From a virus, in the IMG/VR virus record IMGVR_UViG_3300022074_000187: a stretch of 33,830 nucleotides of DNA, one strand, 5' to 3'. Shown here in pieces: positions 1-33,830 of this stretch. Position 1 is the stretch's first letter, and every line of letters begins with the position of its first letter. Position numbers and translations under genes: made by a program. The notes under the pieces were generated by a model. The model was not told the origin of the DNA. It saw only the letters and a program-made list of their open reading frames with translations, and did no database searches.

Positions 1-117
1 ATCATAACAATCCTTACAGTAAAACGTACCACCTTTCCATTTTACTGCATTCTTGGTGCAATACTTGCATCTCTTTTTCATACACGCTTTTCTCCAAGCA
101 TCATCAAATATACCCAC
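1..117 (-). CDS. 5' fragment (39 codons) of the zinc-ribbon gene, duplicated by the terminal repeat. Same gene as 33563..33820
   Basis: Reverse strand reads AGGAGGTATAG-GTG GGT ATA TTT GAT GAT GCT TGG..., identical to the start of ORF 33563..33820. It is cut off by the window edge. Confidence 0.6.
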   Translation of the reverse strand, partial: MGIFDDAWRKACMKKRCKYCTKNAVKWKGGTFYCKDCYD

Positions 118-127
118 CTATACCTCC
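1..127. repeat. 127-bp terminal direct repeat, left copy (exact copy of 33704..33830). Either a circular-closure overlap or terminal redundancy
   Basis: Bases 1-127 (ATCATAACAATCCTTACAG...CCTATACCTCC) recur base-for-base as the last 127 bases of the window. Confidence 0.95.
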
Positions 128-354
128 TAAAGATATACTACATTACCTTTAGTATTGTGTGCAAGATTTACTTTTATACCATAACAAGTCGATAGCAGTT
201 TGATAGTTCTTGGACTTGGTATAGTTCTTTCTGCATTTACTATTGTAGATATAGATAAGCCAGTTAGATTGCTCGCATCTAAATATGTATACGAACAATC
301 TATCCTAGCTTTTCGGAGAATCTTACAAATGTTAGAAGGGAGGTGCGTCGTCAT
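127..354 (-). CDS. XRE-family helix-turn-helix DNA-binding protein
   Basis: ORF 127..369. The segment LTGLSISTIVNAERTIPSPRTIKLL reads as an XRE-type HTH. The first in-frame ATG is at 354 (369 is GTG). Its stop is followed 4 nt later by the AGGAGG of the next gene. Confidence 0.6.
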   Translation of the reverse strand: MTTHLPSNICKILRKARIDCSYTYLDASNLTGLSISTIVNAERTIPSPRTIKLLSTCYGIKVNLAHNTKGNVVYL

Positions 355-682
355 CTTTGATACCAGCACTATCTTTCTTTTCGCATAATTCTATTCTGCT
401 ATCAAACCTACCACACACAACACTTGTGTACCAAGTACCATCATCTAATTTAGAATTTTGCAGCTCTCCTTTGACATAAACAATCATACCTTTCTTGATA
501 TACTTCATAACAAAATCTGTTTTGTATGGATCAAATATACTAATTTTGTGATGATGTGCTTTACGATTGTCTTTACTACCAGAGTTGTGAGTTACAACTA
601 ACTTGCAGTATTCCTCATTTTTCATACGTTCTGGATCTACTGCACAATGTCCTAGTATAGTTACTTCAGCTAATGTCTGCAT
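332..682 (-). CDS. ssb: Single-stranded DNA-binding protein (OB fold with acidic C-terminal tip)
   Basis: 116 aa. The pattern VTILGHCAVDPE...YVKGELQNSKLDDGTWYTS is OB-fold SSB-like. The C-terminus DDDAPPF matches the canonical SSB acidic tail (DDDIPF type). SD GAGAGGT lies upstream of the ATG at 682. Confidence 0.85.
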   Translation of the reverse strand: MQTLAEVTILGHCAVDPERMKNEEYCKLVVTHNSGSKDNRKAHHHKISIFDPYKTDFVMKYIKKGMIVYVKGELQNSKLDDGTWYTSVVCGRFDSRIELCEKKDSAGIKDDDAPPF

Positions 683-1289
683 TCTTTACCTCTCTTTCTT
701 TCATAAATTTAATTTGATCTTTGTATGCTTGTCTAAACCACTTCTGATCTTCATCTTTTAATACTGATATTTCATCTTTGTATGTTGTATACAATTCATC
801 AAGCATAGGTTTATCTGCTGAATCGTGTATAGTTTCAGCAAAATCTTTCTTTAATCTTTCTAATGCTTTAGGTGAAGTATCTGCTTTACTAGATTCATTA
901 CCATCATCATCTGGATCACCTACTACACCAAGTAATGCACACAAACCATATCTTCTAGCATATGTAATAGAACCACCTAGTTTCTGTGGATCATTAGCAT
1001 CTTTAGATACAAGAGGTATACCACCATCACAAACTACCTTACCAGATATATGTATAAGATTAGTTTGCAATACAGATCCACCACCTTCAAGTTGTTTTAT
1101 TACTTGTTGTAATGCAAAGTTGTTATCCTTTAGTGCTGGCTTGACTGTCTTTAGACAACTCAATAGATCAGCAAACTTACTTTTGTAGTGAGGATTCTGA
1201 GAACCTTGATATGGATTATTTACGTCGTGCAATAAGTTGAATAGATCTCTATCAAAGTCTGGTTTATTCTTTGTCTTTTGTTCTGGCAT
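666..1289 (-). CDS. erf: Erf-family single-strand annealing recombinase
   Basis: The motif GGSITYARRYGLCALLGV is typical of the ERF superfamily. It sits next to ssb and an exonuclease. Tandem ATGs at 1295 and 1289; the second has normal SD spacing (GGAGTATGACAATG). Confidence 0.75.
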   Translation of the reverse strand: MPEQKTKNKPDFDRDLFNLLHDVNNPYQGSQNPHYKSKFADLLSCLKTVKPALKDNNFALQQVIKQLEGGGSVLQTNLIHISGKVVCDGGIPLVSKDANDPQKLGGSITYARRYGLCALLGVVGDPDDDGNESSKADTSPKALERLKKDFAETIHDSADKPMLDELYTTYKDEISVLKDEDQKWFRQAYKDQIKFMKEREVKNADIS

Positions 1290-1398
1290 TGTCATACTCC
1301 ACTATTAGGTTGTTGATAAATCCTGGGTGTTTACCTACAAGATTCTCGTTGTAAGTTTTTGCCCACATATCTATTAGTTCTTTCAATGTAAACTTCAT
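1264..1398 (-). CDS. Small hypothetical ORF (about 44-46 aa) bridging the exonuclease and erf
   Basis: Below the ORF-track size cut-off. Hand translation gives MKMKFTLKELIDMWAKTYNENLVGKHPGFINNLIVEYDNARTKDKE. Its first ATG (1404) overlaps the exonuclease stop as ATGA and is preceded by GGAGA. Confidence 0.3.
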   Translation of the reverse strand: MKFTLKELIDMWAKTYNENLVGKHPGFINNLIVEYDNARTKDKE

Positions 1399-1400
1399 CT

Positions 1401-2216
1401 TCATTCTCCTTTTGTTTTGACAACAAGTGTACCTTTCTTGTTGCGTGTTATTACATAGTTACTGTTAGGAAACTCACATCTTCTAGCATCCTTAGGTACA
1501 AGTAACTTCATCTTCTTCTTCGTTTCTTCGAAGCTGGATACAGCACCTTGATACTGATTCATCATACCATCAAGGCTTCTGTATAATTCATTGTCAAACT
1601 CAAGATAGTCTTTCATACCATCTACAAGTACGTGTTCTTCTGCCAAAGTTTCAATAGCACTTTTGCCATTTGATTCTGGTGGTTGCTTGTCATTTTTTAC
1701 GAACAACCAAAACCTTTTCATCTTTGCAAATAGTCTATCGTAGAACTCTTGATTCCAATCTACTCTTACTACTTTGGGATCATCATTACCAAGTATAACA
1801 GATAGGTAACACCAGTCTTGATTATATACTTTCATATAATGATGTAGCTGTGGTGCATAGTATCTAGCCTTGTGTTCAACAGTTGCTCTTGCATTACTGT
1901 GTTTACATTCTAGTATTACATTGTCTACCTTGGCATCAAGATGAGCAAACAATGGTACATCTCTAAATGTAAATTGTTTTACTTCTTGTCCTGGAGTTGG
2001 TCTAGTTACTATCTTACCAGCAAACTCTGTCTTAGCTAACCATTCAATATGGAATGATTCTGTATGTACTCCAAGTTGCACACGAAATACATTAGATAAA
2101 TCTTCTTCCACATCTCTTTTAGTTTTTACTTTCCATAGTTGTACTAGGTTTTGGTTGTGCCATATTCTGTTGGCATCACTACCACCTAGACCTACAGTAC
2201 GGTCAAAATTATTCAT
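1401..2216 (-). CDS. YqaJ / lambda-exonuclease-like PD-(D/E)XK recombination exonuclease
   Basis: N-terminal GLGGSDANRI, then AHLDAK...ILECKHS (D...ExK nuclease core) and YYAPQLHHYMKV (QxxxY-type motif). Start taken at the SD-supported MTMNNF (ATG 2222/2216), not the far-upstream ATG at 2336. Confidence 0.8.
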   Translation of the reverse strand: MNNFDRTVGLGGSDANRIWHNQNLVQLWKVKTKRDVEEDLSNVFRVQLGVHTESFHIEWLAKTEFAGKIVTRPTPGQEVKQFTFRDVPLFAHLDAKVDNVILECKHSNARATVEHKARYYAPQLHHYMKVYNQDWCYLSVILGNDDPKVVRVDWNQEFYDRLFAKMKRFWLFVKNDKQPPESNGKSAIETLAEEHVLVDGMKDYLEFDNELYRSLDGMMNQYQGAVSSFEETKKKMKLLVPKDARRCEFPNSNYVITRNKKGTLVVKTKGE

Positions 2217-2226
2217 AGTCATTCTC

Positions 2227-2457
2227 CTAGTAATGTCGTTCTGAAACAAAAGATACTTGCACTTTATCATAACCTCTGTCGTGACAGTTTTTAAGCTGCA
2301 AATATAATTCACCAATATCAAAACAACTATCTTCAAATATTACTTTGGTAGTTATTTTTGGTTTTTTATAGTCAATATGTTTTTTAGTTTTTGGATTGTA
2401 ATAAGTTGTTTCTGTTCTTGTGTAAGTTATTTTTATTTTATCAAAATATAAACTCAT
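2227..2457 (-). CDS. Hypothetical protein
   Basis: ORF 2227..2541. An SD-supported internal start reads GGAGAATGATTATG (ATG 2463/2457). First gene downstream of the 2483-2511 promoter. Confidence 0.55.
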   Translation of the reverse strand: MSLYFDKIKITYTRTETTYYNPKTKKHIDYKKPKITTKVIFEDSCFDIGELYLQLKNCHDRGYDKVQVSFVSERHY

Positions 2458-2482
2458 AATCATTCTCCTTTTTGTTAATAAA

Positions 2483-2511
2483 ATTATAATGCATTTCTGC
2501 ATTGTAATCAA
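2483..2511 (-). promoter_or_regulatory. Sigma70-like promoter (minus strand)
   Basis: Minus strand reads TTGATT-17 nt-TATAAT (-35 at 2506..2511, -10 at 2483..2488). It lies just downstream of a terminator and upstream of an SD. Confidence 0.5.
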
Positions 2512-2513
2512 GC

Positions 2514-2548
2514 ATAAAAAAAGCCTTGCAAAATTAATCACAAGGCTT
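2514..2548 (-). terminator. Rho-independent terminator (minus strand)
   Basis: Minus strand reads AAGCCTTG-12 nt loop-CAAGGCTT followed by TTTTTTT. It sits 20 nt after the stop of ORF 2569..3159. Confidence 0.6.
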
Positions 2549-2568
2549 GGAACAAATTGAAGAATGAA

Positions 2569-3159
2569 CTAGGTGAATGTTGTGAGTCTGTGTAAGACAG
2601 ATCTACACCATCCAAGAAAACTTTGACAGAAATTTATCTTGTTGTCAACAGGTTCTCGTATGGTAGCTGGTAATGGAAACGTATTATACTTGTGTGTTTT
2701 CATTACAGATACGATAGCATCCTTCAAGAATATAGCTGGTATATCTTTGATTGCTTCTATATAATACTTCAAACCTTCACGTTGTGGTAGTTCAGTTTGA
2801 AATGTATTGCCCAGCACTTGCAAACTTTTTACAATAGTTTCGTTCGGAGCTGGTTGCATTTGTACTTCAAGATTATGAATAACACCATCAATTTTTTTCT
2901 TGAGTGGTGCTAGTTCTTTATGATCCTTTAGTTCTAGTAATGCTTCTGATGTTGCTCTCGCTATTGTATCTATCAAGATAATCTCCGACTGCGTCAGCAT
3001 TACTGGCAGAAACTCTGGCTGGTTTAGAATTGTTCCAGGTTTTCTGTGTTTTGTTACCCAACTTGAAAGAGCACCGACACCAAAATCTGAAGGCGGCATC
3101 CCAGTTGTTTTTTCTGTTACCTTTTGCGAGGTAGTAGTCGACAAATTGTTCGTGTTCAT
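2569..3159 (-). CDS. Hypothetical protein of the replication/recombination module. Overlaps the upstream ORF out of frame
   Basis: 196-aa ORF. The ATG at 3159 has a good SD (GGAGGATTTGAACTATG). No motif recognised by eye. Confidence 0.5.
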   Translation of the reverse strand: MNTNNLSTTTSQKVTEKTTGMPPSDFGVGALSSWVTKHRKPGTILNQPEFLPVMLTQSEIILIDTIARATSEALLELKDHKELAPLKKKIDGVIHNLEVQMQPAPNETIVKSLQVLGNTFQTELPQREGLKYYIEAIKDIPAIFLKDAIVSVMKTHKYNTFPLPATIREPVDNKINFCQSFLGWCRSVLHRLTTFT

Positions 3160-3271
3160 AGTTCAAATCCTCCATTGTTGCTTGCTTAAATTTATCAAAG
3201 AACCAAGACTGCAACGTGGTACTTGGCTCCCAATCTTCTTCTATTGGTTTAGAGGTATAATCTCTTTCCAT
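2918..3271 (-). CDS. Hypothetical protein with a DnaT/replisome-organiser-like N-terminal motif (tentative)
   Basis: 117-aa ORF. The stretch W-x-PS...FVDYYLAKGNRKNNWDAAFRFW resembles the helical W/F-rich domain of phage replication-initiation helper proteins. The C-terminal 80 codons overlap ORF 2569..3159. Confidence 0.45.
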   Translation of the reverse strand: MERDYTSKPIEEDWEPSTTLQSWFFDKFKQATMEDLNYEHEQFVDYYLAKGNRKNNWDAAFRFWCRCSFKLGNKTQKTWNNSKPARVSASNADAVGDYLDRYNSESNIRSITRTKGS

Positions 3272-3642
3272 TCTTCAATCTCCTTTGCTGGTATTGTATG
3301 AATTTTTATACCATATGTTACTTCAGCTAATCTTTTCTTTAGCTTGTAAGTATCTGTCGTTACACCAACAACAGATTCTACTACTACATATCCTCTATGA
3401 TTGTTAGGCTCAAGAGTAACATACCTAAAGTCTGCAACATAATCTGCTATACGCACATTGTTTACTACAACAGGTAGCTGTGGATTGAGTTCAAGATCAG
3501 TTATAAGTTTATCACCTACAAACTGTACTAACTGTAAGTATCTATCTGCCTTGGCAGTAGAGTTGAAGTATACCATATTACCTTGGTATGCTTCGTATCT
3601 ACCACTAGATTTCTTTACGGATTTTTTCGTAGTGGGTTTCAT
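3241..3642 (-). CDS. DUF1064-like PD-(D/E)XK nuclease (possible Holliday-junction resolvase type)
   Basis: The pattern FNSTAKADRYLQL...ITDLELNPQ...ADYVADFRY...VVVESVVGVTTDTYKLKKRL fits the DUF1064 arrangement. Start uncertain: ATG at 3642 or GTG at 3693. Confidence 0.6.
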   Translation of the reverse strand: MKPTTKKSVKKSSGRYEAYQGNMVYFNSTAKADRYLQLVQFVGDKLITDLELNPQLPVVVNNVRIADYVADFRYVTLEPNNHRGYVVVESVVGVTTDTYKLKKRLAEVTYGIKIHTIPAKEIEEWKEIIPLNQ

Positions 3643-3817
3643 ATATATAATTCCATACTGTTTTTGCAGTTGATTCACGTAAACAAAACTCACCTGTCTT
3701 TATTCTATGATAGGTACTATCTTGAATACCAGACTTTCTAAAAGCTTCACGTAAGTTGATACCTTTTTTATCAGCTAGTTTTTGTAACTGATTCATATAA
3801 GTATTAAGTTCATTCAT
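3605..3817 (-). CDS. Small helix-turn-helix protein (Cro/Ner-like, tentative)
   Basis: 70 aa. The segment INLREAFRKSGIQDSTYHRIKTG looks like an HTH. It lies directly downstream of the 15-bp operator-like repeat at 3840..3854. Confidence 0.5.
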   Translation of the reverse strand: MNELNTYMNQLQKLADKKGINLREAFRKSGIQDSTYHRIKTGEFCLRESTAKTVWNYIYETHYEKIRKEI

Positions 3818-3823
3818 AAATAA

Positions 3824-3854
3824 TACCTATCATAGTTAGTGCATAAATGCAAGT
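3824..3854 (-). promoter_or_regulatory. Putative early promoter/operator
   Basis: Minus strand reads ACTTGCATTTATGCA (exact 15-mer shared with 6024..6038), containing -35 TTGCAT. The hexamer 17 nt downstream is only TAGGTA, so the -10 is ambiguous. Confidence 0.3.
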
Positions 3855-4117
3855 TATATGTTTGCTTCTGCTTCTATCTCTAGTTCTTCTAACTTATATC
3901 TTGCATCATACCAGTTATCGAATACCCAGTATTGCTTTTCGTGTAGCCAACCTTTGTTCAGACACTTGATCATTTGATAGTAGTCTTTACCAACAAGATC
4001 AAAACCAGCACTAGTTTCTTCTACAATCCAGAACATATCTTTACCACTCAATATCTTTTGTCTTGTACTTGAACAAGCTCTGTTAAACATCTTCTCTCTT
4101 ACTGTACCTATATACAT
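3854..4117 (-). CDS. Hypothetical protein
   Basis: 87-aa ORF. Its start overlaps the upstream stop (ATGTAA junction at 4117). Confidence 0.55.
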   Translation of the reverse strand: MYIGTVREKMFNRACSSTRQKILSGKDMFWIVEETSAGFDLVGKDYYQMIKCLNKGWLHEKQYWVFDNWYDARYKLEELEIEAEANI

Positions 4118-4452
4118 TACTTACTCTCCTTTATTTTTAGATATAATACTTTACCTTTTTCTGTAGCAAACCAAACTCTTTGGTACTTGCCATGCTTTGA
4201 TTTGCGTTGACCAACTGCACCAATGTAGTGTTGTCTTTCCAACCATACTCTAGCAGTGCGATACTTGCTGGTTGTCACACCATCGTGGAAAGATATTTCT
4301 TCATCAGTCATACCAGATGTACCACCAATATCTATGATGATCTCCAGCACTCTGTCTTTTGCTCGTCTTGTTCTTTGTACTTCTTGTTTGGCGGCAGTCT
4401 TACTAGTTTCTGGATCTGTTCGCCTTACCATATTGTACCAATCTTCACTCAT
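4117..4452 (-). CDS. Winged-helix DNA-binding protein
   Basis: The pattern TDPETSKTAAK...RVLEIIIDIGGTSGMTDEEI...RTARVWLERQHYI...WFATEKG is typical of small phage wHTH proteins. Start context is GGAGAATGAATATG. Confidence 0.6.
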   Translation of the reverse strand: MSEDWYNMVRRTDPETSKTAAKQEVQRTRRAKDRVLEIIIDIGGTSGMTDEEISFHDGVTTSKYRTARVWLERQHYIGAVGQRKSKHGKYQRVWFATEKGKVLYLKIKESK

Positions 4453-4501
4453 ATTCATTCTCCTATATTGTTAATAAATAAATGTATGCCCAGACTATAA
4501 C

Positions 4502-4530
4502 ATTAGTTATTGTAATTATATAGACTGCAA
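4502..4530 (-). promoter_or_regulatory. Putative sigma70-like promoter (minus strand)
   Basis: Minus strand reads TTGCAG-17 nt-ACTAAT (-35 at 4525..4530, -10 at 4502..4507), in the 72-nt gap after the ArdC-like gene. Confidence 0.3.
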
Positions 4531-5427
4531 TCATACATCACCTACTGCTTTATCGCTAGCAATCACTTCTGCTTTCTCACGTACAAAGAAGAAGGATTGA
4601 CTAGCGTACTTACAAGCAGAACGTAGTGAGTCTGGCTTATCTCTAAGAGCCTTAGCCCACGACTTTAAGTAATGCACGTGGTCACTTCTTGTTTCGTGCA
4701 ACAAGTTATAGTGAGCCATATGAAAACTTGCACCAAGTTCTGCTATAAGTTCCTCGAAGGCATAGTCATTTGATGCGAAGCTACCCTTGAGGTTTCTGTC
4801 GCATCTGCTTTTATGCCCTGTCCAATGTGTGATCTCGTGAAACAATGTACTGTAGTATGCTTCACGTTTCTCAAACTGTGTTCTGTGTGGCATCTTGATC
4901 TCATCTGTTTGTGGTATATAACAAGCTCTGTTACTACCATCAGTAATTTTTGCACCTACTTTTGGTATGTCAGTTTCTATTTCTTCTATGACATCGTGAT
5001 CTACTTTTCTTGTAGGTTTAATCAAAGATATTTTAAGATCGTTAATGATTTTTGTATCACCAGTTACATCATCAATACTAAAAATAGCTACAGTCTTGAA
5101 TGTTTTCCTTACTTTTTCTTTGTTAGTTTTAGGATCTACTTCTGTCTTTATGATGGGTTGCCATAAAGGTATGCCTGTGCGTGGTGCTGGATGTAATCCT
5201 ATCTTGTTCCATTGATTGTATGTACCCCAGACAGGTGTCTTGTAACCATACTTGAAGTTCAGATGAAACTGATTCCAACCTGTGTATGCTTTGCCATCTA
5301 CATTCATATGAAAGTTCTCGATCCACTTTGGTATAAATGGTTTACTGGGATCGTGTTGTTCCATATCTTTTATAATCTGCTCGGTGATTGCCTTGAGATT
5401 ATCTTCTGCTATTTGTTTAATTGACAT
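4531..5427 (-). CDS. ArdC-like protein: N-terminal ssDNA-binding domain (DUF1738 type) plus C-terminal zincin metalloprotease motif
   Basis: N-terminal AYTGWNQFHL...TPVWGTYNQWNKIG and C-terminal STLFHEITHWTGH (HExxH followed by WTGH), as in the ArdC / anti-restriction family. Confidence 0.75.
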   Translation of the reverse strand: MSIKQIAEDNLKAITEQIIKDMEQHDPSKPFIPKWIENFHMNVDGKAYTGWNQFHLNFKYGYKTPVWGTYNQWNKIGLHPAPRTGIPLWQPIIKTEVDPKTNKEKVRKTFKTVAIFSIDDVTGDTKIINDLKISLIKPTRKVDHDVIEEIETDIPKVGAKITDGSNRACYIPQTDEIKMPHRTQFEKREAYYSTLFHEITHWTGHKSRCDRNLKGSFASNDYAFEELIAELGASFHMAHYNLLHETRSDHVHYLKSWAKALRDKPDSLRSACKYASQSFFFVREKAEVIASDKAVGDV

Positions 5428-5755
5428 GCCTATCCTCTCTATAATATTTTCTCCACGCTTGAAGTGTTTGATTCATAGCTAACACAAAACTATTTAGATC
5501 TTTTCTTTTGAGCAGCACTCTGAGTTCATCACCTAATAAGTTCTTGTGTTCTAGCCATAGATCGTGAACGTCTGCTAGCTTTTCGCTTTGATAACTTTTT
5601 ACATAGTTTAATCTAGCTTGTAGTTGTTGTATGTTTATGTAAGCACAAGCAAGACGTTTGACTCTATAACTATAACCTTGTAAAAAGTTACAACCATTTT
5701 CAAACAACGTATCGTTAAGCAATTGTTCGTGTGTTTGTTCAGCTAATACATTCAT
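5417..5755 (-). CDS. Hypothetical early protein
   Basis: 112-aa ORF with GGGAG upstream of its ATG. It overlaps its neighbours by 11-17 nt. Confidence 0.55.
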   Translation of the reverse strand: MNVLAEQTHEQLLNDTLFENGCNFLQGYSYRVKRLACAYINIQQLQARLNYVKSYQSEKLADVHDLWLEHKNLLGDELRVLLKRKDLNSFVLAMNQTLQAWRKYYREDRHVN

Positions 5756-5984
5756 AATCTACTCCCTGTTTTTGTAATCTTTTATTTATCATTTCTGCTT
5801 TCTCTTGGTACTCACGTAGAAAAGCATACTTTATTTCTAGGTTTTCTTTACCAGAGTTTATCTTGATTGAATCACGCAAGCACATAATCAAATCATTAAG
5901 CTCTTTTAGATATGCAAGATCAAGTTGTTGCTGTTGCCACATATGATCTTCTAGTCCTTGTAATATGTTTGCTTCTAATGTCAT
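5739..5984 (-). CDS. Hypothetical early protein (first gene of the minus-strand operon)
   Basis: 83-aa ORF. Start context GGAGAATGAAAATG (ATG 5990/5984). It lies directly downstream of the promoter at 6008-6036. Confidence 0.55.
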   Translation of the reverse strand: MTLEANILQGLEDHMWQQQQLDLAYLKELNDLIMCLRDSIKINSGKENLEIKYAFLREYQEKAEMINKRLQKQGVDYECIS

Positions 5985-6007
5985 TTTCATTCTCCTTTGT
6001 TACTAAT

Positions 6008-6036
6008 AGTATAATTAATACAATGCATAAATGCAA
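6008..6036 (-). promoter_or_regulatory. Sigma70-like early promoter (minus strand) with overlapping operator-like palindrome
   Basis: Minus strand reads TTGCAT-17 nt-TATACT (-35 at 6031..6036, -10 at 6008..6013). TGCA-TTTA-TGCA overlaps the -35. Confidence 0.5.
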
Positions 6037-6179
6037 GTATTAAGTTTACAAAATAATTAAACAATAACTACATTGCAGCTCTTCTGTATTTGCATTGTTT
6101 ATTTGTTTGCTGGTGGTACTCTACTACAAGCCCTTCGGTAGCCCAGTCGTGGTTGCCAGCTCCTAAACAAACGTCGCAT

Positions 6180-6211
6180 AAAAAAAACCCTCTGGGCGTG
6201 AACCCAGAGGG
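6180..6211 (-). terminator. Rho-independent terminator (minus strand) of the orphan gene 6224..6748
   Basis: Minus strand reads CCCTCTGGG-TTCACG-CCCAGAGGG followed by TTTTTTTT. 9-bp GC-rich stem, 12 nt after the stop codon. Confidence 0.75.
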
Positions 6212-6223
6212 CAGGAAGCTGTG

Positions 6224-6748
6224 TTACAGCTTCACTGGGGTGTATACTTTCGTTACACCCTTTTTTCTATATGCTAGTTTTCTTTTAGCTGATATATCAA
6301 AGTCACCTTTGGTGTAGATTCGATTGATAGCTGGAACAGCTACAATCTCATCTAGGAAACTCTTGATCATCTCAAGTCTTTCTAATCTTCTCTTTACGTC
6401 ATATCTGATTGCTTCATAGTGTGAAGCCTTGTCATCTATGTCGTTGTCAATCATACCAGTCTTATCTTCAAAACCGGATGCTTTCTTGTGTTGTTCTTGT
6501 GATTTAGAGTCATACTCGTTGTACAGTTCGTCATACTTGTCATAACTCTCTTTGGTTTTATTAATCATTGCAAACATACCATACATAATGCTGTCTACAT
6601 AGTACATACCCACTACCTCGTTCTCGTCACGTGGTAAAGGACTTAGCTTCACAATCTCTTCTGAAGCCTTCTTTAGCTTATCTAGAATTGTTGTAGACGA
6701 AATGTCTTGATTTGCTTTTTTATCGTGTGATTTTTTTGCGTTTGTCAT
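6224..6748 (-). CDS. Hypothetical protein in a stand-alone transcription unit within the divergent control region
   Basis: ORF 6224..6799. An SD-supported start reads AAGGAGTTCAAAATG at 6748 (MTNAKKSHDKK...). 174 aa, with an acidic middle (DKYDELYNEYDSKSQEQ...DNDIDD) and a basic C-terminus. No recognisable family. Confidence 0.65.
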   Translation of the reverse strand: MTNAKKSHDKKANQDISSTTILDKLKKASEEIVKLSPLPRDENEVVGMYYVDSIMYGMFAMINKTKESYDKYDELYNEYDSKSQEQHKKASGFEDKTGMIDNDIDDKASHYEAIRYDVKRRLERLEMIKSFLDEIVAVPAINRIYTKGDFDISAKRKLAYRKKGVTKVYTPVKL

Positions 6749-6772
6749 TTTGAACTCCTTTGTTTTGGTTAT

Positions 6773-6791
6773 AAAAAAATCCCCAAGGGGG
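6773..6791 (-). terminator. Short GC hairpin plus U7 (attenuator/terminator-like) between the structured element and the SD of 6224..6748
   Basis: Minus strand reads CCCCCTTGGGG-A-TTTTTTT. The stem is only 3-4 GC pairs, so it is weak on its own. Confidence 0.3.
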
Positions 6792-6893
6792 TAGTACATA
6801 TAGATAGGAAAGTCTAGGGCGAAGCCAGCTCTCGCTGGGGCGACAGGGGTCGCACCCTAGACTAGTAGGGACGGTTCCTATCTATATGTGCTA
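6792..6893. other. GC-rich nested inverted-repeat element folding as a three-way junction. Candidate structured RNA or MITE-like insertion
   Basis: 6792-6810 pairs with 6875-6893 (19 bp, one G.T). 6811-6819 AGTCTAGGG pairs with 6855-6863 CCCTAGACT. Inner hairpins are CCAGC-TCTC-GCTGG (6825-6838) and GCGAC-AGGG-GTCGC (6840-6853). An 11-nt one-sided bulge lies at 6864-6874. No ORF. Confidence 0.6.
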
Positions 6894-6915
6894 GTTGCAC
6901 TTGCAACATTTTTTT
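6894..6915 (+). terminator. Terminator-like hairpin plus T7 (plus strand) flanking the structured element
   Basis: GTTGC-ACTT-GCAAC-A-TTTTTTT. 5-bp stem. Confidence 0.4.
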
Positions 6916-7025
6916 GTAACCATAACAAACCTTCGGAGTTCAAACCTACCATTGACAAACCAATACAAAATCCAGATAAAAAACGAATCATTATGACATT
7001 TCGGCTATAACAATTCGTTCGTGGT

Positions 7026-7049
7026 AACTTGCTTGGCAACTTACTTGGG
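7026..7049. repeat. Tandem 12-bp direct repeats (iteron-like)
   Basis: AACTTGCTTGG-C-AACTTACTTGG-G, followed by a partial third unit AACT (7050-7053). ACGTTACGTTAC follows at 7066-7077. Confidence 0.5.
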
Positions 7050-7083
7050 AACTAAGTCCTTTGCCACGTTACGTTACAGGTAG

Positions 7084-7104
7084 TGTCAAATTATTTACTT
7101 GACA
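7084..7104. promoter_or_regulatory. Inverted repeat TGTCAA-N9-TTGACA (operator-like, or back-to-back -35 boxes)
   Basis: TGTCAA at 7084-7089 and TTGACA at 7099-7104 with a 9-nt AT-rich spacer. Confidence 0.5.
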
Positions 7105-7127
7105 GCTATATGGATGCTTTGCAATAT
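7099..7127 (+). promoter_or_regulatory. Sigma70-like promoter for the plus-strand (packaging/structural) operon
   Basis: Consensus TTGACA-17 nt-CAATAT, 19 nt upstream of the TerS ATG. Confidence 0.45.
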
Positions 7128-7145
7128 AGAACCAGAGAATGTTAG

Positions 7146-7535
7146 ATGACGAAGCAACTAGACACTAAATCAGACACAACACAAGAACTTACCACTAGGC
7201 AAAGCAACTTTATTGATAACTTGTTAGCTGGTGGTGTTAGTGCAAAACAATGTGCCATAGATGCTGGTTACTCAGAACGATCAGCCAAGGTTGAGGCTAG
7301 TCGCTTACTCAAGAACAGTAAGGTTTTGCACCACTTACACCAGCGTGCTAAGAAGGTGCTAGGAGTCAGAGCAATAACAGCACTACAAACTGTATCAAAT
7401 CTCTCACAATATGCTAACTCAGAGTATGTACGTCTGGAAGCTAGTAAAGACTTATTAGACCGAGCTGGCTTACGGGAAGAGCAGAACCAGACTCTGGGTA
7501 CGAACAACATCCAAGTAAACATAGATCTAACATAG
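7146..7535 (+). CDS. terS: Terminase small subunit (Terminase_2 / P27 type)
   Basis: LTTRQSNFIDNLLAGGVSAKQCAIDAGYSERSAKVEASRLLKNSKV is the characteristic N-terminal HTH signature of this TerS family. Confidence 0.8.
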   Translation: MTKQLDTKSDTTQELTTRQSNFIDNLLAGGVSAKQCAIDAGYSERSAKVEASRLLKNSKVLHHLHQRAKKVLGVRAITALQTVSNLSQYANSEYVRLEASKDLLDRAGLREEQNQTLGTNNIQVNIDLT

Positions 7536-7705
7536 GTAATTTAGCTCGGACTAATAATGCTCTGACTGCTATACCTTCGGTTGTGTAGTTACTGGGGGTA
7601 TCCGAAAACTCTGCTACCGATAACAGGTAGAGGACTTCCTTTCGTATTTTTCCTTTACAAAAGCTCCTCAATGTTTTATGTATGATCTATAACAAGGAGA
7701 TAACA

Positions 7706-25737: not shown

Positions 25738-27813
25738 ATGGCTATAGTCGTAAATGATACAACACCAAGAAATCAGTACACAGCTACGTCTACACAGACT
25801 ACGTTTACTTACTCCTTTGAAATATTTGAAGTAACTGATATAAAAGTATTTCAAGGTTCTACACTCCTAACATACGCTAGTAGTCCTTCGGACAAAACTG
25901 AGTATAGGGTTACAGGTGCTGGTACATCAGGTGGTGGCACTATTGTATTAGGTGGTGGTGCTACTGCTAATGATGTGTATACATTAGTAAGAGATATACC
26001 TGTTGCAAGAACAACAGACTTTCCTACATCTGGTCCATTTGTAATAGATAGTTTAAATACTGATCTTGATAAGATGGTTGCTATGATGGGTGAAAGAGAA
26101 GATGAGATAGCAAGGTCAATAAGACTAACTGATGATGATTCTTCTGCAACATTAACATTACCACTAAAAGCAAGTAGAGCAAATAAAGTATTAACATTTA
26201 GTAGTACAGGTAATGTAGAAACTTCTATTACAGCAACAGACGTAAGTACCGTTGCTAGTATTTCAAGTAACATAACAACAGTAAGTGGCATAGCAAGTAA
26301 TGTAACAACAGTAGCTGGCATTAGTAGTAATGTAACTACTGTTGCTGGCAAGGCATCAGAAATAACTTCTGTTGCGGCAGTTGCAAGTTTAATAACTTCA
26401 GACTTTGTATCGGATCTAAACACATTAGCAGTAACAGATGTAGTAAATGATATTAATACATTAGCTACTTCTGATATTGTAAGTGATCTTAACACACTAG
26501 CCACATCAGATATTGTTAGTGATTTAAATACTTTGGCAACAAGTGATATTGTTTCTGATATAAACACTCTTGCTACAAGTGATATAGTAAGTGATTTAAA
26601 TACACTTGCTACTAGTGATTTTGTATCAGATTTAAATACAATAGCTACTTCAACAAATGTAAACAATATTGCAACAGTTGCTGGTAATAACTCAAACATA
26701 AATACGGTAGCTGGTAACAATTCTAATATTTCTACTGTAGCTGGAATATCAAGTAACGTTACTACTGTTGCTGGCATTACAAGTAATATTGCTACAGTCG
26801 CTGGTATATCAGCTAATATAACTACAGTTGCTAGTAACAATGCAAACATAACTACATTAGCTGGTATAAGTTCAGACGTAACATCTCTTGCTAGTGCTCT
26901 TGCATCTACTACTAATTATACTGTAACAGTAGCAAGTGGTACATTATATGGTGGTGGTACTGGTAATGTATTTTATTTAGATGGTACTGGTAATCCAGCA
27001 ATTACTTTAATAAGAGGTAATACATATGTATTTGATCAAAGTGATTCTAGTAATGCTTCACATCCAATAGCATTTAGGACTAGTGCAGATGCAAGCTATA
27101 CAACAGGTGTAACTTCTACTGGTACTCCTGGAAATGCTGGAGCAAAAACTACATTTGTTGTACCTTCAGATGCACCAGCTTCGTTAAAGTATTACTGTAC
27201 TACGCATGGAAATGGTATGGGTAATGTTATTACTGTAGATACTTCAAACATAAATGTTGTTGCTAGTAATATAGGTGAAGTAAATAGTTTTGCACAAAGA
27301 TATAGAGTAGGAAGTAGTGATCCTACGTCATCACTAGATGAAGGAGATTTAGCATATAATAGTACAGCAAATGTTTTAAAATATTATAATGGATCTGCTT
27401 GGGTAACTATTGTTGCTGGTTCTTTGACAGATATAGTACAGGATGGTAGTCCACAATTAGGTGGAGATCTTGATGTTCAAACAAATTCAATAATATCTAC
27501 AACAAATAGAGATATAAATATTACACCAAATGGATCTGGTAAAGTAGTTTTAGATGGATTAAGTTATCCAACATCTGATGGTACAGCAAATCAAGCAATA
27601 ACAACAGATGGTTCTGGCACTCTTACTTTTGCTACAATACAAGCAAGTGAGTTGACAAGTGCTGGAAATTTGTTTAGTAATTATAATAGTGTAAGTAGTA
27701 ATGCTACTTCTACAACAGCCAGCACAAAGAATGCGTTTCTCTTTGGACCGATAACTGTAAGTGGTTCTGCTACTTGGACAATAAATGGAAATGGCACATT
27801 AGAAATTTTATAG
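25738..27813 (+). CDS. Tail fibre: gp17-like N-terminal adaptor, tandem-repeat shaft, cupredoxin-like domain, C-terminal domain
   Basis: The N-terminus (YTATSTQTTFTYSFEIF...IKVF...YRV...LVRDIPVARTTDF...LNTDLDK) parallels the T7 gp17 N-terminal domain (LDGSNRDFNIPFEYL...YRF...LRRVTSTTDRLVDF...LNVAQ). Confidence 0.8.
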   Translation: MAIVVNDTTPRNQYTATSTQTTFTYSFEIFEVTDIKVFQGSTLLTYASSPSDKTEYRVTGAGTSGGGTIVLGGGATANDVYTLVRDIPVARTTDFPTSGPFVIDSLNTDLDKMVAMMGEREDEIARSIRLTDDDSSATLTLPLKASRANKVLTFSSTGNVETSITATDVSTVASISSNITTVSGIASNVTTVAGISSNVTTVAGKASEITSVAAVASLITSDFVSDLNTLAVTDVVNDINTLATSDIVSDLNTLATSDIVSDLNTLATSDIVSDINTLATSDIVSDLNTLATSDFVSDLNTIATSTNVNNIATVAGNNSNINTVAGNNSNISTVAGISSNVTTVAGITSNIATVAGISANITTVASNNANITTLAGISSDVTSLASALASTTNYTVTVASGTLYGGGTGNVFYLDGTGNPAITLIRGNTYVFDQSDSSNASHPIAFRTSADASYTTGVTSTGTPGNAGAKTTFVVPSDAPASLKYYCTTHGNGMGNVITVDTSNINVVASNIGEVNSFAQRYRVGSSDPTSSLDEGDLAYNSTANVLKYYNGSAWVTIVAGSLTDIVQDGSPQLGGDLDVQTNSIISTTNRDINITPNGSGKVVLDGLSYPTSDGTANQAITTDGSGTLTFATIQASELTSAGNLFSNYNSVSSNATSTTASTKNAFLFGPITVSGSATWTINGNGTLEIL
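26239..26904 (+). repeat. In-frame tandem repeat array inside the tail-fibre gene
   Basis: Three blocks. 30-nt units x5 (NxTTVAGISS type, 26239-26388). 36-nt units x about 7 (LATSDIVSDLNT type, about 26398-26664). 30-nt units x8 (NIxTVAGxxS, 26665-26904). Confidence 0.9.
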
Positions 27814-33562: not shown

Positions 33563-33820
33563 TCACCTCACTACTTTATATTTATCTATTGTTATCTTTC
33601 TTTGTTTCTTTTTACTAACCTTAACTTTAGAATTTTCAGATCCCCCCTTTTTTTGTGGAGGGGGTTCCGAAAATTCTAATCTCATTCCTTTTACCACTGC
33701 CTTATCATAACAATCCTTACAGTAAAACGTACCACCTTTCCATTTTACTGCATTCTTGGTGCAATACTTGCATCTCTTTTTCATACACGCTTTTCTCCAA
33801 GCATCATCAAATATACCCAC
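33563..33820 (-). CDS. Zinc-ribbon (CxxC...CxxC) small basic protein
   Basis: 85 aa, GTG start with AGGAGG 5 nt upstream. Contains CKYCTKNAVKWKGGTFYCKDC. The 5' 117 nt lie inside the terminal repeat. Confidence 0.6.
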   Translation of the reverse strand: MGIFDDAWRKACMKKRCKYCTKNAVKWKGGTFYCKDCYDKAVVKGMRLEFSEPPPQKKGGSENSKVKVSKKKQRKITIDKYKVVR

Positions 33821-33830
33821 CTATACCTCC
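33704..33830. repeat. 127-bp terminal direct repeat, right copy (identical to 1..127)
   Basis: Exact match to bases 1-127. Confidence 0.95.

What the first reader, a model, noticed from the sequence alone, without database searches (positions are those of the whole stretch)
6773..6915. GC-rich three-way-junction element with terminator-like hairpins on both sides, in the divergent control region
What the sequence shows:
- TAGTACATATAGATAGGAA (6792-6810) is the reverse complement of TTCCTATCTATATGTGCTA (6875-6893), apart from one G.T position.
- Directly inside, AGTCTAGGG (6811-6819) pairs with CCCTAGACT (6855-6863). This leaves an 11-nt one-sided bulge, AGTAGGGACGG (6864-6874).
- The enclosed core holds two 5-bp tetraloop hairpins, CCAGC-TCTC-GCTGG and GCGAC-AGGG-GTCGC, joined by single nucleotides. 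That is a compact three-way junction.
- Read on the minus strand, the loops are GAGA (GNRA class) and CCCU.
- The core is conspicuously GC-rich in an AT-rich genome and contains no ORF.
- The flanks are mirror-like. On the left is A7-T-CCCCAAGGGGG (on the minus strand, a GC hairpin followed by U7), ending about a dozen nt before the SD of gene 6224..6748. On the right is GTTGC-ACTT-GCAAC-A-T7, a plus-strand terminator-like hairpin.

Hypotheses (inference):
1. A riboswitch- or attenuator-like leader for the orphan gene: a junction aptamer, then a terminator hairpin, then the SD. The UCCC in the bulge and the CCCU loop could compete for the GGGG strand of the terminator hairpin.
2. A stand-alone small RNA bounded by terminators.
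3. A MITE-like insertion, with 17-19-bp inverted termini bounded by TA...TA.
4. A DNA cruciform at an origin.

I could not match it to any RNA family I know.
Basis: partly seen in the sequence, partly recalled or inferred. Interest (0 to 1): 0.8.

Follow-up and report, generated by a model that had tools for sequence, protein, structure and literature searches.

The report
Hairpin apex of phage gene-start palindrome
The GC-rich three-way hairpin is real and kept by paired mutations, but it is only the tip of a 0.5-0.7 kb imperfect palindrome joining the starts of two back-to-back genes in a family of ocean (SAR11) phages; it most likely folds in the mRNA leader of the first early gene and hides its ribosome-binding site, though a DNA-level role is nearly as likely.

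Summary
The structure is far beyond chance (fold z-scores of -8.6 to -12 on both strands, as RNA or as DNA). In five relatives, 10 of 23 outer-stem pairs changed on both sides and none on one side only.

It is not a self-contained 143-nt element. It is the apex of an imperfect inverted repeat spanning about 6483-7187.
- The left arm holds the SD, AUG and first ~88 codons of the orphan 174-aa gene.
- The right arm is a non-coding mirror copy that runs through the late promoter into TerS.

The same architecture sits upstream of TerS in the cultured Pelagibacter phage EXVC031P Hodr and in most of 65 related viral contigs. The apex cores there are unrelated in sequence.

Rejected or unsupported:
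- MITE: rejected. There is one copy per genome, it is syntenic, and it is absent from 185,579 prokaryote genomes.
- Known Rfam family: none found.
- Ligand riboswitch: unsupported. Close relatives carry swapped, unrelated cores, and no alternative fold competes.

Best reading (0.35): a minus-strand 5' leader fold-back that sequesters the gene's RBS, with a weak hairpin-U7 checkpoint just before the SD. Close rivals are a DNA-level palindrome (origin, packaging or recombination; 0.30) and a plus-strand countertranscript (0.15). The strand and the molecule cannot be settled from sequence alone.

The parts
6483..7187 (.). Whole imperfect inverted repeat (quasi-palindrome), centred near 6843. The reported element is its apex.
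   Evidence: Local alignment of 6150-7550 against its own reverse complement scores 230, against a maximum of 43 in 20 shuffles. 268 of 308 aligned pairs are Watson-Crick.
6773..6791 (-). A7 + T + CCCC-AAG-GGGG. On the minus strand this reads as a 4-bp GC hairpin followed by A-U7, 11 nt upstream of the SD.
   Evidence: It is kept in all relatives with one compensated change (CCAC/GTGG in L005). It is too short for the terminator scan.
6792..6893 (.). Y-shaped apex: a 19-bp AT-rich outer stem (6792-6810 / 6875-6893) enclosing the GC-rich core.
   Evidence: Folds. Outer stem plus the first 4 bp of P1: 10 of 23 pairs changed on both sides, 0 on one side only, 94.9% of cells paired, 0 of 500 shuffles as good.
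6811..6874 (.). Type A core. It comprises P1 (6811-6819 / 6855-6863), junction CGAAG, hairpins 6825-6838 and 6840-6853, and an 11-nt purine-rich bulge (6864-6874).
   Evidence: The GC content is 65.6%. The core is nearly identical in L005, with hairpin 1 compensated (CCACC/GGTGG). In L002, L003 and L004 it is replaced by an unrelated type B core.
6894..6915 (+). GTTGC-ACTT-GCAAC + A + T7: an intrinsic-terminator-like site for plus-strand transcripts.
   Evidence: It is one of two terminator-like sites found in 6000-7400. The stem sequence is replaced in relatives (AGGCA/TGCCT; GGC/GCC) while the A+T6-7 tail is kept.
6740..6764 (-). AUG (6748..6746), spacer and SD (GGAG = 6758..6755) of the 174-aa gene. 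These form the left halves of helices H1-H3.
6923..6960 (-). Mirror (anti-SD / anti-AUG) segment. GGAGTTCAAA (6935-6944) pairs with 6749-6758. TGACAAAC (6953-6960) pairs with 6740-6747. Two bulges (CCTTC, CCTACCAT) are kept in all relatives.
   Evidence: All 138 cells are paired. Three H2 pairs changed on both sides across four haplotypes, and none changed on one side only. In the 301-nt minus-strand fold (-117 kcal/mol, z -11.3) the SD and AUG lie inside helices.
6224..6748 (-). Orphan 174-aa gene. It is helical and found only in this phage group. Its first ~88 codons form the left arm.
   Evidence: The ORF is kept at 173-176 aa in five diverged variants with conserved motifs. It has no Pfam, PHROG or phage tblastn hit. 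Only 4 hits appear among 1.84 billion representatives. The structure model has pLDDT 56.
6187..6212 (-). Strong intrinsic terminator closing the 174-aa gene's transcription unit.
   Evidence: 11 pairs, T8. The structure is kept with unrelated stem sequences in L056, L057, L058 and L004.
7084..7127 (+). Late/packaging promoter P_R. It is a TGTCAA-N9-TTGACA palindrome (-35 = 7099-7104), a 17-nt spacer, and CAATAT (7122-7127). It lies inside the right arm.
   Evidence: Present in all 7 variants at 9-10 of 12 matches. The block is invariant in the alignment.
7123..7152 (-). Candidate leftward promoter TCGTCA-18-TATATT. It shares the -10 region with P_R. If real, the transcription start is near 7116, giving a leader of about 358 nt.
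   Evidence: It is one of only three promoter-like hits in 6000-7400. A counterpart exists in 6 of 7 variants. This is an inference; it has not been shown to function.
6751..6780 (+). Weak plus-strand promoter-like site TGAACT-18-AAAAAT. It would start an RNA near 6788 that ends at 6915.
   Evidence: A counterpart exists in 7 of 7 variants, but only at 7-9 of 12 matches and in low-complexity sequence.

Best explanation
The element is the Y-shaped cap of a long fold-back formed by the 5' leader of the mRNA of the 174-aa gene (minus strand).

Proposed mechanism:
1. Transcription starts to the right of the element. The best candidate is TCGTCA-18-TATATT at 7152..7123, which competes with the late promoter for the same -10 region.
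2. RNA polymerase first transcribes the mirror (anti-SD) segment, then the apex. The very stable apex hairpins fold at once and bring the two arms into register.
3. Next comes a weak GC hairpin with A-U7, which acts as a leaky termination or pause checkpoint 11 nt before the SD.
4. Last come the SD, spacer and AUG. These pair with the mirror segment (helices H1-H3), so ribosomes are kept off until the fold-back is opened or cut. The 19-20 bp perfect AU-rich stem is the kind of duplex RNase III cuts.

The gene is thus a tightly gated, monocistronic unit closed by its own strong terminator.

Shown: the fold, its conservation by compensated changes, the pairing of the SD and AUG with the mirror segment, and the gene's insulation.
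Inferred: the promoter, that the minus strand is the active strand, attenuation, and processing.
For: 1. Structure and significance.
2. Outer stem: 10 of 23 pairs changed on both sides and none on one side only.
3. The SD/spacer helix takes four forms: TTTGAACTCC/GGAGTTCAAA (window), TTTAGACTCC/GGAGTCTAAA, TGTAAACTCC/GGAGTTTACA and TTTTGACTCC/GGAGTCAAAA. It is always 10/10 Watson-Crick. Two right-arm bulges persist in every variant, which argues against simple homogenisation.
4. The gene is real. Only 11 nt separate the U7 from the SD, and no promoter-like site fits there in any variant, so its mRNA must read through the left hairpin.
5. A leftward promoter-like site at 7152..7123 is conserved in 6 of 7 variants.
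6. A strong terminator directly after the gene is kept in structure with unrelated sequences. The next early genes have their own promoter-like site.
7. Across the wider family, 19 of 51 distinct RBS windows of the first leftward gene have an exact complement of at least 9 nt on the far side of the apex. The two control regions give 2 and 1.
8. Between close relatives there are Watson-Crick-to-Watson-Crick double changes in the arms. Synonymous changes are about half as frequent in the palindromic half of the gene: 15 against 28.
Against: 1. The inverted repeat runs past the candidate start site, through P_R and into TerS codons. This holds here, in Hodr and in several relatives. No single minus-strand transcript explains that.
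2. The plus strand folds better than the minus strand in 27 of 32 apex clusters and in all six window-group 301-nt fold-backs. G.T outnumbers A.C on the plus strand. Flank controls show that part of this is a composition effect.
3. The leftward promoter is weak (9 of 12 matches), is missing in L005, and has no clear counterpart in the Hodr cluster.
4. The hairpin before the SD has only 3-4 bp.
5. Some relatives (for example L079) have no U-run after the apex in either direction.
6. There are no expression data.
Confidence: 0.35

Rival explanations
1. A DNA-level palindrome. The roughly 0.7 kb quasi-palindrome acts as DNA at the early/late junction next to terS, either folded single-stranded or as an extruded cruciform at the apex. 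Possible roles are a replication origin, a packaging-initiation region, or a programmed junction or break site for the phage's own Holliday-junction resolvase and Erf/RecE recombination system. The apex provides the stable hairpins that nucleate extrusion. The arms are kept alike by selection for intrastrand pairing or by templated conversion.
For: - The repeat ignores transcription-unit boundaries. It covers P_R and the first 14 to about 50 TerS codons on one side and up to about 88 codons of an unrelated gene on the other. This holds in the window, in Hodr and in L068, L079 and L084.
- The arms are alike within a genome but undetectable between the window and Hodr lineages. The left-hand proteins are not homologous either.
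- The extent varies from 55 to about 800 nt among relatives.
- The apex sequence is hypervariable but always structured.
- No outer-stem pair changed on one side only, and many changes are A-T to T-A flips.
- The same fold is predicted for ssDNA.
- The cumulative GC-skew minimum lies here.
- The leftward module encodes an HJ resolvase, Erf, a RecE-like exonuclease and SSB.
Against: - The 19-bp arms are separated by a 64-nt asymmetric core, which is unfavourable for cruciform extrusion from duplex DNA.
- The hairpin + A + T6-7 modules on both flanks, with stem turnover but conserved T-runs, look like RNA terminators and have no DNA-level rationale.
- Bulges of 5-8 nt persist between perfectly co-varying helices, which broad conversion tracts would erase.
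- No iterons or known origin, cos or pac motifs were found.
- GC skew here equally reflects gene orientation.
Confidence: 0.3
2. A plus-strand small RNA or countertranscript. A transcript of about 128 nt starts near 6788 from TGAACT-18-AAAAAT and ends at GTTGC-ACTT-GCAAC-A-U7 (6915). It is exactly antisense to the apex part of the 174-aa gene's leader. It would act as plasmid countertranscripts do, or on other targets. This could coexist with the leader model.
For: - The plus strand is the better-folding strand, carries the G.U pairs, and is purine-rich at unpaired positions (19 of 26 in the window).
- The plus-strand terminator-like site is recognised by the scan and is kept by structure plus a T-run in all variants.
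- The promoter-like site has correct spacing in 7 of 7 variants. Its mirror image on the right arm is put out of spacing by the conserved 5-nt insertion.
- Swapped core 'cassettes' within conserved flanks are what specificity determinants of antisense systems look like.
Against: - The promoter matches only 7-9 of 12 positions, and its -10 is an A-run.
- The flank controls show the strand bias is partly compositional.
- The apex and the leader's hairpin-U7 do not overlap, so binding has no evident way to switch termination.
- The model does not explain the arms.
- Several Hodr-lineage apexes have no plus-strand U-run.
Confidence: 0.15
3. A plain bidirectional terminator or insulator. The apex plus the two flanking hairpin/U-run modules only stop stray transcripts crossing the junction in either direction.
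For: - The layout A7-hairpin ... hairpin-T7 terminates whatever exits the element on either strand.
- The stems are free to vary while the T-runs are kept.
Against: - The flanking genes diverge from the element, so there is nothing obvious to terminate.
- A block on the minus strand would silence the 174-aa gene.
- The model does not explain SD/AUG pairing, the long arms, or relatives without U-runs.
Confidence: 0.07
4. A ligand-sensing riboswitch, or a put/nut-like antitermination RNA, in the leader.
For: - A three-way junction is followed by a hairpin-U7 and then the SD.
- Two 5-bp hairpins joined by one nucleotide recall HK022 put (from my own knowledge, not tested here).
- A strong terminator follows the gene.
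Against: - The core is not conserved. Type B relatives, and the Hodr relatives, have unrelated cores in the same place.
- No alternative pairing exists: the centroid equals the MFE.
- No Rfam family matches.
- The downstream early genes have their own promoter-like site, so read-through is not required.
Confidence: 0.04
5. A MITE-like mobile insertion.
For: - Terminal inverted repeats of 19 bp.
- A GC-rich core in an AT-rich genome.
Against: - There is one copy in the window at up to 3 mismatches.
- The core has no match in 185,579 prokaryote species genomes.
- In viral and metagenome collections it occurs only at the same syntenic site.
- The 'terminal repeats' co-vary and continue outward as a 700-bp palindrome.
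- No empty site exists among the relatives.
Confidence: 0.01

Closest known systems
Phage lambda N-leader (nutL to N): a large RNase III-sensitive leader stem that hides the N ribosome-binding site (from my own knowledge)
   Same: - The first gene of a leftward early unit is a small, fast-evolving protein with a basic N-terminus.
- A long structured leader has its stem covering the SD and AUG.
- A terminator lies right after the gene.
- Recombination and anti-restriction genes lie further downstream.
   Different: - There is no boxA/boxB.
- The leader here would be an almost complete mirror image of the gene's own 5' coding region.
- The cap is a GC-rich three-way junction.
- The downstream genes seem to have their own promoter.
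- RNase III cutting is untested.
Countertranscript (ctRNA) attenuation of plasmid rep genes (pT181, pIP501, R1 CopA/CopT) (from my own knowledge)
   Same: - A highly structured leader sits upstream of a gene.
- A possible small antisense RNA with its own terminator is made from the same DNA.
- A hairpin-U-run lies just before the RBS.
- Variable 'specificity' cores sit within conserved flanks.
   Different: - No mutually exclusive terminator/antiterminator pairing is visible.
- The antisense promoter is weak.
- The pre-RBS hairpin is only 3-4 bp.
- The setting is a phage, not a plasmid.
Palindromic replication origins between divergent genes (HSV-1 oriL 144-bp palindrome; polyomavirus control region) (from my own knowledge)
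   Same: - A palindrome lies exactly at the junction of divergent transcription units.
- AT-rich paired segments are present.
- The GC-skew minimum lies here.
   Different: - The palindrome here is 5 times longer and imperfect, with an asymmetric structured centre.
- The arms include coding sequence.
- No initiator-binding repeats were identified.
AAV / parvovirus T-shaped terminal hairpins, and single-strand origins (sso) of rolling-circle plasmids (from my own knowledge)
   Same: - A long stem is capped by two small hairpins (Y/T shape).
- The folding is strand-biased.
- The same fold is predicted for ssDNA.
   Different: - The site is internal, in a 33.7-kb circularly assembled dsDNA phage.
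- No flip/flop orientation was seen among the variants.
- No HUH/Rep gene was found.
'Palindromic genes' of the Polytomella magna mitochondrial genome (PMC3787674, title and abstract listed)
   Same: Coding regions are themselves part of palindromic units, which implies concerted evolution of the arms.
   Different: - The source is an organelle, not a phage.
- There every gene is involved.
- Here there is a single junction palindrome with a structured apex.

Membership tests
Any Rfam family (riboswitches, sRNAs, ribozymes, tRNA-like elements) | Covariance-model score at or above the family's gathering threshold | tested here: not met
   There are 0 hits in the whole window and 0 in 20 related loci. 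The best sub-threshold hit is Tymo_tRNA-like at 21.8 bits against a gathering score of 40, on the minus strand, E 0.026. ARAGORN finds no tRNA or tmRNA.
Riboswitch | Aptamer core (junction and loop nucleotides) conserved across relatives | tested here: not met
   The type A core is replaced by an unrelated type B core in L002, L003 and L004 within the same flanks. The Hodr lineage has yet other cores.
Riboswitch / attenuator | Mutually exclusive terminator and antiterminator (or sequestrator) pairings | tested here: not met
   The apex and the hairpin-U7 are adjacent and do not overlap. The MFE equals the centroid at 32% of the ensemble. The proposed UCCC/CCCU partners are absent from type B relatives.
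Riboswitch | Ligand binding | not testable with these tools
   This needs in-line probing, ITC or a reporter assay.
Intrinsic (rho-independent) terminator | G+C-rich stem of at least 5 bp, a loop of 3-8 nt, and a U-run directly after | tested here: met
   The plus-strand site 6894-6907 with ATTTTTTT is found by the scan. It is kept by compensated stems and T6-7 in all variants. Function is untested.
Intrinsic terminator (minus-strand site before the SD) | Same criteria | tested here: not met
   The CCCC/GGGG stem has 4 bp here and 3-4 bp in relatives. The scan does not report it. The U7 is present.
RBS-sequestering leader (translational operator or fold-back) | SD and start codon paired with an upstream segment, and the pairing conserved by covariation | tested here: met
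   H1-H3 are 100% paired across 6 variants. Three pairs in the SD spacer changed on both sides and none on one side only. The family-wide enrichment is 19 of 51, against 2 and 1 in the controls.
RBS-sequestering leader | Both halves lie on one transcript (promoter upstream of the anti-SD) | tested here: inconclusive
   Only a 9-of-12 promoter-like site at 7152..7123 is available. It is present in 6 of 7 variants. There are no transcript data.
MITE / mobile element | Multiple dispersed copies, target-site duplication, and empty sites | tested here: not met
   There is a single copy and none in 185,579 genomes. It is always syntenic.
Protelomerase target (telRL) / hairpin telomere | Perfectly palindromic centre and a protelomerase gene | tested here: not met
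   The centre is a 64-nt asymmetric core. No large tyrosine-recombinase-like ORF was seen among the leftward genes screened.
Replication origin | Initiator-binding repeats, a DNA-unwinding element, and a mapped start of replication | tested here: inconclusive
   AT-rich stems and the GC-skew minimum are present. No iterons were found.
HK022 put / lambda nut antitermination site | Conserved two-stem-loop RNA (put) or boxA/boxB (nut) downstream of an early promoter, needed to read through terminators | not tested
   The resemblance (two hairpins joined by 1 nt) is recalled from memory. The core is not conserved among relatives, and the downstream genes have their own promoter-like site. Both points argue against membership.

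The most novel reading that the evidence does not exclude
A family of abundant SAR11 phages keeps a 0.5-0.8 kb 'gene-start palindrome'. The 5' parts of two divergent, unrelated genes, plus the late promoter, are held as imperfect mirror images of each other around a hypervariable but always strongly folded Y-shaped cap. Under this reading the structure works as folded DNA. It would be a strand-biased fold-back or cruciform that starts replication, packaging or recombination, or that flips the early/late decision. It would not be an ordinary RNA leader. That would be a kind of cis element not described for tailed phages, and an example of coding sequence constrained to mirror a neighbouring promoter.
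Probability: 0.25. Interest if true: 0.8.

Novelty: new variant of a known kind. Interest (0 to 1): 0.6.

Why it matters
Pelagiphages are among the most numerous viruses in the sea, and almost nothing is known about how they time gene expression or start replication and packaging. This junction element is a conserved, easily recognised landmark. It lies about 180-400 nt upstream of terS in Hodr-like phages, and one of those phages is in culture, so the question can be tested directly.

If it is an RNA leader, it is an unusually large RBS-sequestering fold-back with an exchangeable cap. It would add to the picture of RNA-based control in SAR11 systems.

If it acts as DNA, it is a new type of phage cis element. 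It would show that several hundred bases of coding and promoter sequence can be kept as a palindrome by co-evolution.

On the practical side, the arms already caused a scaffolding error in a public TARA assembly.

Tried and rejected
- Rfam search at gathering and at permissive thresholds, on the window and on 20 related loci, found nothing usable.
- tRNA/tmRNA scan found none.
- MITE or host origin was tested with the core pattern. It is absent from genome contigs and has one copy in the window. It occurs only at syntenic sites in viral and metagenome contigs.
- The hunt for more window-group variants exhausted the collections. Only five distinct sequences exist.
- TerS-N-terminus relatives L007-L054 have no palindrome above chance, so the feature is not general to that TerS type. 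Methylophilales phage MEP301 (TerL 44% identical) has a different gene order.
- The function of the 174-aa protein could not be found. There are no Pfam, PHROG or phage hits, and only its own group appears in 5.8 billion and 1.84 billion protein searches. The structure model has low confidence, so no fold search was run.
- I looked for a protein whose similarity tracks the core type (A or B). None does, and the core type is incongruent with the flanking genes.
- The sigma-70 promoter search was inconclusive for the element's own transcripts. Only P_R is strong, and all candidates that would transcribe the apex are weak.
- G.U versus A.C counts and plus/minus fold energies were tried as a strand test. 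They show a plus-strand bias, but flank controls show a compositional component, so the test is not decisive.
- Hammerhead and other small ribozyme cores, and a protelomerase site, were considered by eye and dropped because the core motifs or a palindromic centre are missing.
- The literature search found no description of pelagiphage palindromes or of Hodr.
Full report
CONTEXT

The window is a complete, circularly assembled phage genome. Bases 1-127 equal 33704-33830. It has 33.2% GC.
- Leftward genes (332..6748) encode SSB, an Erf annealase, a RecE-like exonuclease, a replication-initiator fragment, a Holliday-junction resolvase and an ArdC-like anti-restriction protein.
- Rightward genes start with TerS (7146) and TerL (8845).
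- The nearest cultured relative is Pelagibacter phage EXVC031P Hodr, with TerL 64% and TerS 38% identical.
- The finding lies in the 397-nt gap between the first leftward gene (6224..6748, 174 aa) and TerS.

The predicted minimum-energy fold is exactly the described structure on both strands.
- As RNA: z -8.6 on the plus strand and -10.0 on the minus strand.
- As single-stranded DNA: z -10.6 and -12.3.

The core 6811-6874 is 65.6% GC.

RELATIVES

Scans of viral and metagenome collections found only five distinct relatives of this exact locus. The scans used a core pattern, a conserved flank pattern, TerS and the 174-aa protein.
- All five keep the same layout: an A-run, a small GC hairpin, an 18-20 bp AT-rich stem, an inner core, the matching stem arm, a small hairpin and a T-run.
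- On the outer stem plus the first four P1 pairs, 10 of 23 pairs changed on both sides and none on one side only. 94.9% of cells are paired, and no shuffle in 500 does as well. In that alignment the core was replaced by an artificial GAAA loop to keep the register.
- The small hairpins also show compensated changes: CCCC/GGGG to CCAC/GTGG, GTTGC/GCAAC to AGGCA/TGCCT, and CCAGC/GCTGG to CCACC/GGTGG.

The core comes in two unrelated versions.
- Type A occurs in the window, L001 and L005. It is the three-way junction.
- Type B occurs in L002, L064, L003 and L004. It consists of a 9-bp hairpin TGTCAACAG...CTGTTGACA, 14 unpaired nt and a 7-bp hairpin.
- Within a type the core is more conserved than its surroundings.
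- The type does not follow the phylogeny of the flanking genes, and no protein tracks it.

THE ELEMENT IS ONLY AN APEX

Aligning the region with its own reverse complement gives an imperfect inverted repeat from about 6483 to 7187. The score is 230 against at most 43 for shuffles, and 268 of 308 aligned pairs are Watson-Crick.
- The left arm is the SD, AUG and first ~88 codons of the 174-aa gene.
- The right arm is a non-coding mirror copy that continues through the late promoter into the first ~14 TerS codons. That promoter is the TGTCAA-N9-TTGACA palindrome, a 17-nt spacer and CAATAT (7084-7127).
- All relatives have it.

Three helices next to the apex stand out.
- GTTTGTCA (6740-6747) pairs with TGACAAAC (6953-6960) and covers the AUG.
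- TTTGAACTCC (6749-6758) pairs with GGAGTTCAAA (6935-6944) and covers the SD and spacer.
- TTGTT pairs with AACAA.
- All 138 cells are paired in six variants. The SD-spacer helix exists in four different, always perfectly complementary versions. Two right-arm bulges (5 nt and 7-8 nt) are present in every variant. That pattern is hard to get from broad gene conversion and points to selection for pairing.

Between close relatives there are Watson-Crick-to-Watson-Crick double changes further out in the arms. Synonymous changes are about half as frequent in the palindromic half of the gene, 15 against 28 over three non-independent pairs.

A FAMILY-WIDE FEATURE

Hodr has the same design at the same place (L065 3402-4095, score 292 against 37).
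- It has mirrored SD boxes, CCTCCTTTGG and CCAAAGGAGG.
- A long AT-rich stem surrounds an unrelated 49-nt GC-rich core.
- Its right arm runs through a strong TTGACA-17-TATACT promoter into TerS.

Of 65 Hodr-lineage viral contigs examined, most have a palindrome centred 180-400 nt upstream of TerS.
- Scores reach 409 and spans range from 55 to about 800 nt.
- The apexes are always multi-hairpin but very different in sequence.

The first leftward proteins of the two lineages are not homologous, and their arms share no detectable DNA similarity. The arms therefore co-evolve within genomes. More distant TerS relatives lack the palindrome.

In 19 of 51 distinct cases the RBS of the first leftward gene has an exact complement of at least 9 nt across the apex. 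The controls give 2 and 1.

WHAT IT IS NOT

- Not a known RNA family and not a tRNA-like gene.
- Not a MITE. There is one copy, none in 185,579 prokaryote genomes, and it is always syntenic.
- Not a convincing riboswitch. The putative aptamer is exchangeable. The fold is monostable, with the centroid equal to the MFE. The suggested UCCC/CCCU-GGGG competition has no counterpart in type B relatives.

WHICH MOLECULE AND WHICH STRAND?

This cannot be settled from sequence.

For the minus strand:
- The 174-aa gene is real and conserved.
- It is an insulated unit with a strong, structurally conserved terminator right after it. The next genes have their own promoter-like site.
- No promoter fits in the 11 nt between the U7 and the SD. 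Its mRNA must therefore come from the right and carry at least the left hairpin, and probably the whole apex and mirror segment.
- The only reasonable leftward promoter-like site is TCGTCA-18-TATATT at 7152..7123. It shares the -10 region with the late promoter and is present in 6 of 7 variants.
- A 301-nt minus-strand RNA folds into a single fold-back with the SD and AUG buried (-117 kcal/mol, z -11.3).

For the plus strand:
- It folds better in 27 of 32 apex clusters (Wilcoxon 3e-5) and in all six window-group fold-backs.
- G.T outnumbers A.C by 96 to 45 in the central parts.
- Unpaired positions are purine-rich.
- Control windows show that whichever strand is G-rich, usually the sense strand of the local genes, folds better anyway. 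Part of the bias is therefore composition.
- A weak plus-strand promoter-like site (TGAACT-18-AAAAAT) has correct spacing in 7 of 7 variants. Together with the right-hand terminator-like hairpin it would delimit an RNA of about 128 nt.

For DNA:
- The repeat runs beyond any plausible single transcript, through the late promoter into TerS. This holds in several independent lineages.
- Its extent varies widely.
- The junction is the GC-skew minimum.
- The phage carries a junction resolvase and a recombination system.

VERDICT

I commit, at 0.35, to a minus-strand 5' leader fold-back.
- It gates the 174-aa gene by RBS sequestration.
- The reported element is its nucleating, exchangeable cap.
- The hairpin-U7 is a leaky checkpoint.
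- A plus-strand countertranscript may coexist (0.15).
- A DNA-level role of the whole palindrome is nearly as likely (0.30). It is the reading that would make this really new.

The riboswitch and MITE ideas are not supported.

Noticed in passing
window 1-127 and 33704-33830: The two ends are identical 127-nt stretches. This is the overlap of a circular assembly, so the window is a complete genome of about 33.7 kb.
   Followed up: partly
window 6187-6212 (minus strand): A strong intrinsic terminator (11-bp stem, T8) lies directly after the 174-aa gene. Relatives keep it with completely different stem sequences, so the gene is a monocistronic, insulated unit.
   Followed up: yes
window 6008-6036 (minus strand): A promoter-like site TTGCAT-17-TATACT lies just upstream of the SD of the next early gene (5739..5990). 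This suggests the main early operon does not depend on read-through from the 174-aa gene (read by eye, 8 of 12 matches).
   Followed up: partly
window 7084-7152: The late promoter has a palindromic TGTCAA-N9-TTGACA box over its -35, which is operator-like and invariant in relatives. A minus-strand promoter-like site uses the same -10 region, so the two would exclude each other.
   Followed up: partly
window 26238-26891: Runs of 30- and 36-nt periodic repeats (7-8 copies, 60-80% alike) lie inside the 691-aa ORF 25738-27813. This is probably a repetitive fibre-like protein.
   Followed up: no
L147 (TARA scaffold) 2240-2290: A public scaffold has an N-gap inside the left gene followed by an inverted copy of the TerS start. 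This is a scaffolding error caused by the similarity of the palindrome arms.
   Followed up: partly
Hodr-lineage loci, e.g. L067 ~2215-2250, L090 ~1210-1240, L068, L075, L077: Many apexes carry two G5-G8 tracts, each followed by (A/G)(A/G)CC (GGGGGAACC ... GGGGGAACC). They always lie on the TerS-sense strand, and the tract lengths vary. The window has two TAGGG motifs (6814-6819, 6865-6869) in comparable positions.
   Followed up: no
window 2569-3271 (minus strand): Two overlapping ORFs (196 aa and 117 aa) lie here. The second matches only the C-terminal part of phage replication-initiation proteins. This may be a frameshifted or two-part initiator.
   Followed up: no
window 4531-5427 (minus strand): An ArdC-N plus zincin MPTase-PolyVal protein is encoded here. 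This is an anti-restriction type better known from conjugative plasmids, found here in a pelagiphage early module.
   Followed up: no
window 6723-6750: A 28-nt block covers the first nine codons of the 174-aa gene. It is invariant at the nucleotide level (27 of 28) in five variants whose proteins are only 37-49% identical. This implies an overlapping non-coding constraint.
   Followed up: partly
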